A DNA stretch of 64,000 bases from Octopus vulgaris (lineage: Eukaryota): assembly GCA_951406725.2 (NCBI GenBank), contig OX597820.1, positions 6,820,001 through 6,884,000 on the forward strand, in the 5' to 3' direction. The notes below the pieces were generated by a model. That model was not told the origin of the DNA. It saw only the letters and a program-made list of their open reading frames with translations, and made no database searches. Below are positions 11,397-57,620 of this stretch, one piece after another. Both the position numbers and the translations under genes were made by a program. Numbering within the stretch: position 1 is the stretch's first letter; every line of letters begins with the position of its first letter.

Positions 11397-11794
11397 AGAT
11401 GGAGTGAATTTTAGGACTTATAAATCTAATATGGATTCATCGTCTGTGAGTATGAAATATCTCCTCATATCTCCGGTAATTGCACCTACATTATGGATGG
11501 ATTTACCTTTTCTGTGAAGCTAACAAGCTTTTTTAAAGCCTGTTATAAGACTGTACATCATTAGAGAACTTTGGAAGTCTGCTTACAATCTAAATTTGCT
11601 TTATATAGAACTATCTTCGATACTTCATGAGTGTAGCCTCACCCGCTAGGATGCTTGGAGAACTCATATGTGTTTCGGCTGATGAGTACGGGACACATTG
11701 TATTTGCTGCAATATTTGCAGCTTTTAATAAAGCTGGTCTTCGTATGAAACAATTGTACTGAAATACAAAATCCATTCTTGTTGCTTTTTTCTT

Positions 11795-21290: not shown

Positions 21291-21344
21291 TTCGTTTTTG
21301 GTTTGCAAGATTCTTTATATGAGTTTGTGTGTTGGAAGCATATT

Positions 21345-21567
21345 CTATTGTGTCTGGGGAGAGTCATTTTCTTTTTGTGCCTTATTATGTAACACACTCA
21401 CCGGTAAAATTTCCACGTTTTACTTATATTTATTGTCTTAAAATTTTCGTTGCGTCTTGCAACCTTTTCAATAGGACAATAAAAATAAGAAAAATGTGGA
21501 AATTTTACCGGTGAATGTGTTACTTAATAAGGCACAAAAAGAAAATGACTCTCCCCAGACACAATAG
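21345..21567. repeat. Fold-back element with ~95 bp near-perfect arms
   Basis: CTATTGTGTCTGGGGAGAGTCATTTTCTTTTTGTGCCTTATTA... / ...TAATAAGGCACAAAAAGAAAATGACTCTCCCCAGACACAATAG; 31 nt spacer. Confidence 0.92.
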
Positions 21568-21624
21568 TATACATACATACATCAACTTCTATATTTGTAT
21601 GCGCAAACGTACGTGTGTGCTTAG

Positions 21625-42677: not shown

Positions 42678-42744
<67 letters not shown>

Positions 42745-42749
<5 letters not shown>

Positions 42750-43070
42750 TTAGGGAATGAATCCAAAATTACAGGGAAAAAAATCAGATTTAGGGTTAAA
42801 TCCAATTTTATAGTAAAATATTATATAATATAATTCGAGACAAAACCACTATTTTAAAACCAAACAAGGAAAGACTTAATCAATACATAAAATTTTAATA
42901 TAAATTAAATAAACCGCCACTACAAATGTTTCATGTCTGCTACCGACAATCTTCAGGTGGATTTTCGATCTTCTAATCAGTATCAAATTTTGAAGTGAAT
43001 TATATTAAAATTTTATGTATTGATTAAGTCTTTCCTTGTTTGGTTTTAAAATAGTGGTTTTGTCTCGAAT

Positions 43071-43080
<10 letters not shown>
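42745..43080 (-). mobile_element. Fold-back element in (TA)n with a hammerhead in the spacer (Penelope-like non-autonomous element?)
   Basis: Perfect ~80 bp inverted arms 42823-42903 / 43000-43080; 42745-42825 module shared with 57371-57452; (TA)n on both sides. Confidence 0.75.
42917..42960 (-). ncRNA. Minimal Type I hammerhead ribozyme motif
   Basis: CCAC-CUGAAGA-u-UGUC(gguagca)GACA-u-GAAA-CAUUUG-UA-GUGG; stems I and II pair, GUA cleavage triplet. Confidence 0.75.
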
Positions 43081-43130
<50 letters not shown>

Positions 43131-57370: not shown

Positions 57371-57620
57371 AAAATATTAGGGAATAAATCCAAACTTACA
57401 GGGAAAAATCAGATTTAGGATTGAATCCAATTTTATAGTAAAATATTATATTATTTTAAATATATATCAAAATTATTAAAAAAAAAGATAATTAGTATAA
57501 CACTACGATCGTTTCATGGCTGTCCAATTCGTAAAAATTCGAGTTACAGTAATTCTTCAGGTGATTGAAATATTTAACTTGGCGCGGTTTAATCAATATT
57601 TGTCTCAATACATCATTTCA
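57371..57620 (-). mobile_element. Relative of the 42745-43080 element, with hammerhead
   Basis: Shares AAATATTAGGGAAT.AATCCAAA.TTACAGGGAAAAATCAGATTTAGG..AATCCAATTTTATAGTAAAATATTATAT; directly follows (TA)n. Confidence 0.7.
57501..57563 (-). ncRNA. Minimal Type I hammerhead ribozyme motif with long stem II
   Basis: CAC-CUGAAGA-[~38 nt]-GAAA-CGAUCG-UA-GUG; palindromic stem III, GUA triplet. Confidence 0.65.

What the first reader, a model, noticed from the sequence alone, without database searches (positions are those of the whole stretch)
42745..43080. Youngest exemplar: perfect 80 bp fold-back enclosing an intact hammerhead, inside (TA)n
The arms show no visible mismatch, indicating a recent origin. 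The spacer holds CCAC-CUGAAGA-stem II-GAAA-CAUUUG-UA-GUGG. Predicted cleavage after GUA would release an RNA starting GUGG that runs through one arm and the 80 bp terminal module into (TA)n. The second arm resembles the inverted partial pLTR copy produced in Penelope-type retrotransposition. No coding capacity.
Basis: partly seen in the sequence, partly recalled or inferred. Interest (0 to 1): 0.72.

Follow-up and report, generated by a model that had tools for sequence, protein, structure and literature searches.

The report
Spliced Penelope retrocopy, inserted head-to-head
This fold-back is the intron-less front end of a protein-coding Penelope-type jumping gene, present as one long and one short copy joined back to back in a TA repeat, and its many sister insertions suggest that both cut DNA strands likely copy the same spliced RNA from two fixed start points, with the ribozyme, whose cutting is untested, left uncut in this copy.

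Summary
In detail: 82-nt arms, 100% complementary, a type I hammerhead motif between them on the minus strand, (TA)n on both sides. It is not a stand-alone fold-back element. It is the 5' end (pLTR) of a Hydra-clade Penelope-like retrotransposon whose coding copies lie elsewhere in this genome. This copy lacks their 1,288-nt GT-AG intron exactly, so it was copied from spliced sense RNA, read across the uncut ribozyme to about the likely start site. Intron-less junctions outnumber intron-bearing ones 270 to 80 (exact patterns). In two censuses, 90 of 91 two-armed insertions pair one long end (with the ~80-nt tail) and one short end. The arms agree in splice state and almost always in source variant. 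In 12 of 46 the short arm holds sequence the long arm lacks, which excludes simple snap-back there. Best reading: both nicked strands prime on one RNA at the two ends of the tail. The layout, ribozyme and TA targeting are published. The spliced templates and the pairing rule were not in the papers I found. Perfect arms are common (10 of 37), so "youngest" is unsupported.

The parts
42681..42744 (.). (TA)n target tract at the long (tail) end
   Evidence: 107 of 117 census 3' ends run into TA-like sequence
42745..42821 (-). Tail (~80 nt) between the short and the long 3' end; in coding copies it continues through ~55 nt to the ATG
42745..42999 (-). Long arm: spliced pLTR copy from about the likely start site to the end of the tail (q1-q255; q n = window 43000-n)
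42822..42903 (-). Part of the long arm that pairs with the short arm
42917..42960 (-). Type I hammerhead motif; predicted cut between 42921 and 42920; U.U at the base of stem II, 2-bp stem III
   Evidence: activity untested
42969..42970 (-). Exon 1/exon 2 junction; the 1,288-nt GTATGT...TTTTTAG intron of source copies is missing exactly here
   Evidence: 270 exact hits for the joined form, 80 for the intron acceptor form
42970..42999 (-). Exon 1 (30 nt), starting at an initiator-like TCACTTC (start site inferred)
42999..43000 (.). Head-to-head junction of the 5' ends of the two arms
43000..43081 (+). Short arm: inverted, 5'-truncated pLTR copy (q97-q178), ending at the short 3' end, without tail
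43082..43127 (.). (TA)n target tract at the short end

Best explanation
The locus is the intron-less 5' end of a Hydra-clade Penelope-like retrotransposon, present as a long copy with tail and a short inverted copy without tail, likely made when the element's endonuclease nicked both strands of a (TA)n tract and each nick primed reverse transcription on the same spliced, uncut RNA, one at each end of the tail. Steps: (1) A source copy with promoter, exon 1, intron, hammerhead, tail and ORF exists (shown). (2) It is transcribed and spliced (inferred from exact intron loss). (3) The RT-endonuclease, possibly a dimer, binds the tail region and nicks both strands of (TA)n (inferred; shown in vitro for the anole element PAc). 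(4) One strand primes at q~260 and the other at q~178 (the two fixed ends and their pairing are shown; priming is inferred). (5) Both cDNAs run toward the RNA's 5' end; here one reached about the start site and the other stopped at q97 (extents shown). (6) The two cDNA 3' ends join, mostly by short overlaps or small inserts (junctions shown, pathway inferred). The product has neither the upstream promoter region nor the intron and is likely a dead end; its hammerhead is a passenger that is predicted to cut poorly as a monomer.
For: Source element: the tail runs into an ORF with DKT, YRDD, CxCX5C, YIG, CxxC and CxH motifs. Coding copies 99% identical in the pLTR exist (L187, L188, L101), and a ~90% sister subfamily has open ORFs of 837-851 aa and an exon-1-like stretch with GT donor plus the same acceptor position. 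Splicing: exact loss of the GT-AG intron; 270 against 80 exact hits. Four sequence variants each occur both spliced and intron-bearing (46/11, 12/3, 7/3, 11/7), so splicing recurred. Pairing rule: in census 1 (70 loci from the first 100 of 622 hits) all 47 two-arm loci are head-to-head and 46 pair long with short. In census 2 (60 of 61 loci of the 131T variant, from all 87 hits) 44 of 44 do (42 after removing two apparent segmental duplicates). Long coding insertions L188, L191, L199 and L200 show the same pairing. Two primings: in 12 of 46 loci the short arm reaches further 5' than the long arm, in several with no overlap at all; short ends also occur alone (10 of 23 single-arm loci). One RNA: splice state matches in 12 of 12 informative pairs (8 spliced, 4 intron) and 8 of 8. 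The ~12% minority 131T variant is on both arms in 31 of 32 informative pairs. In a pooled, selection-biased set of 112 pairs no diagnostic site was mixed. Ten variants seen in only one locus are shared by both its arms. Frangieh 2024 (PMC11167929) reports nicking and extension of both strands, two internal start sites bounding the tail, a predicted dimer, and uncut RNA as the main substrate.
Against: At this locus alone the short arm lies wholly within the long arm, so snap-back cannot be excluded here. One mixed pair (L316, C/T at 131), one short+short pair (L071) and one long+long pair (L012) exist. 69 private differences between arms are discordant against 10 shared; I read them as later mutation or RT error but did not test this. 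Concordance could also come from two RNAs of one active source in one cell, or from later conversion between arms. No subfamily-A coding copy that I inspected has a complete ORF (L101, L187, L188 frameshifted, L198 deleted). An earlier AI note on another family in this genome reports mixed arms in about a tenth of palindromes (e1-9536500, unchecked). Frangieh saw no strand difference in start-site use in vitro. No target-site duplication can be read in (TA)n.
Confidence: 0.75

Rival explanations
1. Two primings as above, but on two separate RNA molecules held by the two halves of the complex, usually from the same source locus.
For: Explains the pairing rule equally well. One mixed pair (L316).
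Against: Splice state never mixed in 20 informative pairs of the two censuses, although both states occur within each variant. When one arm stops at q76-90 its partner almost never passes further 5' (0 of 15 and 1 of 21).
Confidence: 0.15
2. One cDNA primed at the long end folds back on itself and makes the short arm as second strand, which then joins the TA target by chance homology (snap-back; related to the published self-priming idea).
For: At this locus the short arm is contained in the long arm. Short junction overlaps and the TCAAAATTTGA palindrome are common at junctions. It explains all concordance between arms.
Against: 12 of 46 loci have short-arm sequence absent from the long arm. 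The short end is fixed at q~178 and also ends single-arm copies and coding elements. The antisense-template version (PMC3846280) does not fit exact intron loss in most copies.
Confidence: 0.07
3. A self-propagating non-autonomous element (retrozyme- or SINE-like) whose unit starts at the ribozyme cut site.
For: High copy number, no ORF in the copies, hammerhead present; a few copies begin exactly at GTGG (L102, L167).
Against: No tandem arrays among 130 census loci; copies cross the uncut site and a splice junction; spliced copies lack the promoter region; each variant also occurs with the intron.
Confidence: 0.03

Closest known systems
Hydra clade of C-terminal-endonuclease Penelope-like elements, incl. 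Hydra-1_Obim (Craig et al. 2021, PMC8557442; passages, sections 11 and 15, supplement searches)
   Same: Single ORF with DKT, CxCX5C linker, CxxC and CxH flanking the endonuclease E/N, canonical hammerhead, (TA)n insertion; inverted 5'-truncated copy and a tail on one end (their Fig. 2 legend, for PLEs generally).
   Different: A different family from Hydra-1_Obim (protein and hammerhead differ by eye; no alignment run). KWK in place of RWK; Asn-rich insert makes the ORF ~840 aa; tail ~80 nt rather than 30-40; 1.3-kb 5' UTR intron, lost in most short copies.
Poseidon from Anolis carolinensis, PAc (Frangieh et al. 2024, PMC11167929; parts 1-2 of 4 read)
   Same: Two internal RT start sites bound the tail; both strands of AT-rich DNA are cut and extended; uncut RNA serves as template.
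   Different: There the tail lies inside the ORF, no strand asymmetry was seen in vitro and no reads ended at the cut site. Here the tail is in the 5' UTR, the two ends pair one-to-one per insertion, and many 5' ends pile up just 3' of the cut site.
Adineta vaga Penelope elements (PMC3846280; passages)
   Same: Head-to-head inverted pLTRs with palindromic junctions, optional tail, Inr-like TCACT, Asn-rich ORF inserts.
   Different: That paper proposes self-priming on an antisense template, compatible with intron retention. Here most short copies have lost the intron exactly, which needs a spliced sense template.
Minimal hammerheads of metazoan PLEs (Cervera and de la Pena 2014, PMC4209133; parts 1-2 of 4 read)
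   Same: Type I core, short helix I, short helix III, pairs of motifs on opposite strands 100-700 bp apart, intron 3' end close to helix I (D. virilis); low activity expected, dimer likely needed.
   Different: No G10.1-C11.1 pair (U.U here); helix III loop not palindromic in this variant.
Metazoan non-LTR retrozymes (bioRxiv 10.64898/2026.07.22.740005; part 1 of 5 read)
   Same: Short, non-coding, hammerhead-bearing, related to PLE pLTRs.
   Different: Not tandem; unit not bounded by cut sites; directly traceable to a coding element's spliced 5' UTR.

Membership tests
Hydra-clade PLE | Single ORF, RT followed by C-terminal GIY-YIG-type endonuclease | tested here: met
   Open ORFs of 837-851 aa in subfamily B with YRDD then VVY..YIG. 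Pfam gave no relevant hit; Atlas neighbours at 0.95-0.97 carry HTH_animal in 28-84% and RVT_1 in 16-20% of members.
Hydra-clade PLE | DKG motif modified to DKT | tested here: met
   VQSDKTRN (definition)
Hydra-clade PLE | N-terminal RWK motif | tested here: inconclusive
   RIKWKA: conservative R-to-K change at the motif, aligned by eye with RMRWKA of Hydra-1_Obim
Hydra-clade PLE | CxCX5C linker; CxxC and CxH around the endonuclease E and N | tested here: met
   CTCRDKSKC or CTCRDKSNC; CYLCSNE; CRH
Hydra-clade PLE | Canonical hammerhead in the pLTR | tested here: met
   Motif present in subfamilies A and B; cleavage not tested
Hydra-clade PLE | Insertion in (TA)n | tested here: met
   107 of 117 census 3' ends
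Hydra-clade PLE | Phylogenetic placement within the clade | not tested
   No tree built; reference proteins were seen only as supplement text
EN+ PLE insertion | pLTRs in partial tandem, adjacent inverted 5'-truncated copy, tail at one end | tested here: met
EN+ PLE insertion | 5' UTR intron in the pLTR, usually retained in genomic copies | tested here: inconclusive
   Intron present and retained in long coding copies, but lost in most short copies, 270 against 80
Naiad PLE | N-terminal endonuclease, DKA motif, no canonical hammerhead | tested here: not met
   C-terminal endonuclease, DKT, hammerhead present
Non-LTR retrozyme | Tandem units, each with a type I hammerhead | tested here: not met
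   No head-to-tail short arrays in 130 census loci
Non-LTR retrozyme | Circular RNA from self-cleavage | not testable with these tools
   Only assembled contigs were available
Active hammerhead ribozyme | Self-cleavage at the NUH site | not testable with these tools
   Indirect only: natural GUA-to-GUU variant keeps the rule; 5' ends pile up at q80-90

The most novel reading that the evidence does not exclude
Penelope-like elements insert by an asymmetric double priming on one RNA: each nicked strand takes one end of the tail, so head-to-head inversions and one-sided tails are the normal product, and sense spliced mRNA is a routine template. In addition, the ribozyme, cut or folded, forms a template boundary at q~87 where this telomerase-related RT slips and repeats a short U-rich word (TTTAT/TTTTAT runs of varying length), a genomic record of telomerase-like reiteration in a retrotransposon.
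Probability: 0.3. Interest if true: 0.8.

Novelty: new member of a known kind. Interest (0 to 1): 0.52.

Why it matters
How Penelope-like elements make their inverted copies and one-sided tails, why they keep introns, and what their hammerheads do are stated as open in the papers read. This young family gives internal markers (splice state, minority variants, two fixed ends) that turn those questions into counts. The counts favour a sense, often spliced template and two primings per insertion over the published antisense self-priming idea. They give clear predictions for the existing in vitro system. The single locus is an ordinary dead copy; the value lies in the family.

Tried and rejected
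Rfam: no hammerhead model matched; only chance miRNA hits. Folding z-scores of the ribozyme region were not significant. Pfam did not recognise the ORF. RNA evidence: no RNA holder was listed on record. Four guessed-RNA runs held only contigs; they covered the pLTR, one run showed an exon-1 loose end at the acceptor, none covered the 55 intron bases laid. Cap-derived G: of 50 spliced arms reaching the likely +1 A, 25 have the templated C, 14 G, 6 T, 5 A, but at least 9 of the 14 G are also explained by the opposite arm: inconclusive. A search for the tail running into an ORF by pattern gave only TA-type or unrelated flanks; the coding copy came from walking upstream of L067. The ORF fragment in L061 belongs to another PLE family. 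I first took the ORF for a Naiad from memory; the paper showed otherwise. The pattern for copies starting at the cut site mostly returned a GUU variant (28 of 30 inspected of 41). Hybrid arms with subfamily B: none in 47 pairs or beside 23 single arms. Presence/absence polymorphism was not tested. Literature searches found no paper with the long+short pairing rule or a majority of spliced copies; subscription papers (e.g. the 2003, 2006 and 2008 Penelope papers, known to me only by citation or recall) and bioRxiv supplements were not seen and may bear on this.

Full report
Observation. The arms are 42822-42903 and 43000-43081, 82 nt and fully complementary, 96 nt apart, between two (TA)n tracts. 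The minus strand of the spacer holds a type I hammerhead core as described. A core scan gave 3 hits in the window and 0-1 in each of 30 shuffles. The motif has weak points: a U.U pair at the base of stem II, a 2-bp stem III with a non-palindromic loop, and a competing fold of lower energy. Rfam does not score it. Below, q n is window position 43000-n, read on the minus strand; the cut is predicted at q79|80.

The family. The window lies in a 2.8-Gb genome of 227 contigs; an octopus host is inferred from its size and repeat content and from earlier AI notes, not shown by a call of mine. A 36-nt word of the arm has 622 exact hits and a one-base variant 87 more. Six other loci equal this one over 178 nt, and 10 of 37 census loci have perfect arms. 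The family is young, but this copy is not shown to be the youngest.

The source element. Copies L061, L067 and L100 hold a 1,288-nt segment between q30 and q31 that starts GTATGT and ends TTTTTAG. The window copy joins q30 to q31 exactly. Upstream of L067 the tail continues through ~55 nt into an ORF. A protein search found about 20 near-full-length copies at 95-99% identity. Their layout is: promoter region, 30-nt exon 1 starting at an initiator-like TCACTTC, intron, hammerhead, short end q178, tail to q~260, ORF, repetitive 3' region, then the same pLTR again. Subfamily A, 99% identical to the window copy, had no complete ORF among the four coding loci inspected. Subfamily B (~90%) has open ORFs of 837-851 aa and a matching exon 1, donor and acceptor. 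The protein shows DKT, YRDD, CxCX5C, YIG, CxxC and CxH, the features given for the Hydra clade in PMC8557442 section 11; the RWK motif reads KWK. It differs by eye from Hydra-1_Obim. No tree was built.

Spliced templates. The joined exon junction has 270 exact hits and the intron acceptor 80 (patterns of 29 and 33 nt, arms not loci). Four sequence variants each occur in both states, so spliced copies arose repeatedly from intron-bearing sources. Spliced arms end at q1-q19, with a peak at q7; one (L017) reaches ~17 nt upstream of q4. None of the four ORF-linked loci has a spliced 5' end. A short copy from the start site to the tail is what internal initiation on the first pLTR of a spliced transcript would give; a transcript of a solo intron-bearing pLTR would give the same, and I cannot separate the two. 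Either way the template was sense RNA and was uncut at the ribozyme.

The pairing rule. Census 1 took all 70 loci behind the first 100 of the 622 hits. 47 have two arms, all head-to-head; 46 pair a long with a short end and one has two short ends; 23 have one arm (13 long, 10 short). Census 2 took 60 of the 61 loci of the 131T variant (the coding copy L188 was left out). All 44 two-arm loci pair long with short; two pairs look like segmental duplicates, leaving 42. Against random pairing each census has p below 1e-12. A pooled, biased set of 112 pairs gave 109 long+short, 2 scored short+short (one has a deleted long end) and 1 long+long. In 12 of 46 census-1 loci the short arm reaches further 5' than the long arm, which a fold-back of the long cDNA cannot give.

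One RNA or two. Splice state agreed in 12 of 12 and 8 of 8 informative pairs. The 131T variant, about 12% of arms, was on both arms in 31 of 32 informative pairs; L316 is mixed. Ten private variants are shared by both arms and 69 are not. One RNA copied twice is the simplest reading.

The boundary at q87. 27 of 117 arms in census 1 end at q76-90 (16 at q87) and 33 of 104 in census 2 at q81-90 (22 at q87), against 12 and 6 ends over q31-75. Their partners almost never pass further 5' (0 of 15, 1 of 21). Many carry runs of TTTAT/TTTTAT of varying length and order at the junction, built mostly from words of q86-102. L102 and L167 start exactly at the cut site and L058 has GTGGCGG as its 5'-most element sequence. 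L324 carries three bases upstream of the cut site, which argues against cleavage there. q81-89 is also predicted to pair in alternative folds. So the boundary may be a cut RNA end or a folding stall, and the repeats may come from RT slippage or from host end-joining (polymerase theta, recalled). This is unresolved.

Mechanism and comparison. Frangieh et al. (PMC11167929, parts 1-2 of 4) showed for a Poseidon element that both strands are cut and extended, that RT starts at two internal sites bounding the tail, and that ribozyme cleavage is not needed. The genomic pattern here fits that and adds that one insertion uses both sites, one per strand. Craig et al. describe the inverted copy and one-sided tail and call the mechanism open. 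PMC3846280 (passages) proposes antisense self-priming, which exact intron loss in most short copies does not fit. Cervera and de la Pena (parts 1-2 of 4) describe such hammerheads, opposite-strand pairs and low activity. PMC13282606 (passages) lists Penelope-like families in Octopus vulgaris without these features. My six searches found no report of the pairing rule or of a spliced majority; older subscription papers were not seen.

Earlier notes. I recorded my reading before looking. Several AI notes on this genome reach the same layout, pairing rule and spliced templates, perhaps for this family. They are not independent support, and they show that the pattern recurs across the genome rather than being special to this locus.

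Verdict. A real, ordinary dead copy of a new Hydra-clade family. Identity as a spliced pLTR retrocopy is about 0.95 likely, two primings about 0.9, one RNA about 0.8 given two primings. The family-level counts bear directly on an open mechanism. Interest 0.52.

Noticed in passing
window 57372-57570, minus strand: Relative sharing the tail (92% over 85 nt) with its own hammerhead, CAC-CUGAAGA-long stem II-GAAA-CGAUCG-UA-GUG at 57560; one arm only.
   Followed up: partly
window 11671-11770, plus strand: A third type I hammerhead with a 61-nt stem II region and palindromic CAAUUG; similar long-stem motifs occur in L040, L062, L081, L093.
   Followed up: no
window 21343-21570: Another near-perfect fold-back of a different repeat family, seen as a chance miRNA hit.
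   Followed up: no
L061:2-707 and L061:1337: Fragment of another Penelope-like ORF (thumb, Cys linker, GIY-YIG) with a minimal hammerhead downstream.
   Followed up: no
L187, L189, L194 ORFs, residues ~500-610: Asn/Lys-rich insert of variable length between RT and linker, in frame, as described for A. vaga Penelope elements.
   Followed up: partly
L145-L174: A variant changes the cleavage triplet from GUA to GUU and makes stem III palindromic (CAAUUG); both fit hammerhead rules.
   Followed up: partly
L132: Both arms share several private changes, including in stem II of the hammerhead.
   Followed up: no
L300/L301, L312/L313, L203: Identical two-arm insertions repeated 5-12 kb apart, likely segmental duplications or assembly duplicates.
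   Followed up: no
L067/L101, L187 3' region and intron: The 3' untranslated region and the intron are built from the same TG-rich repeat blocks.
   Followed up: no
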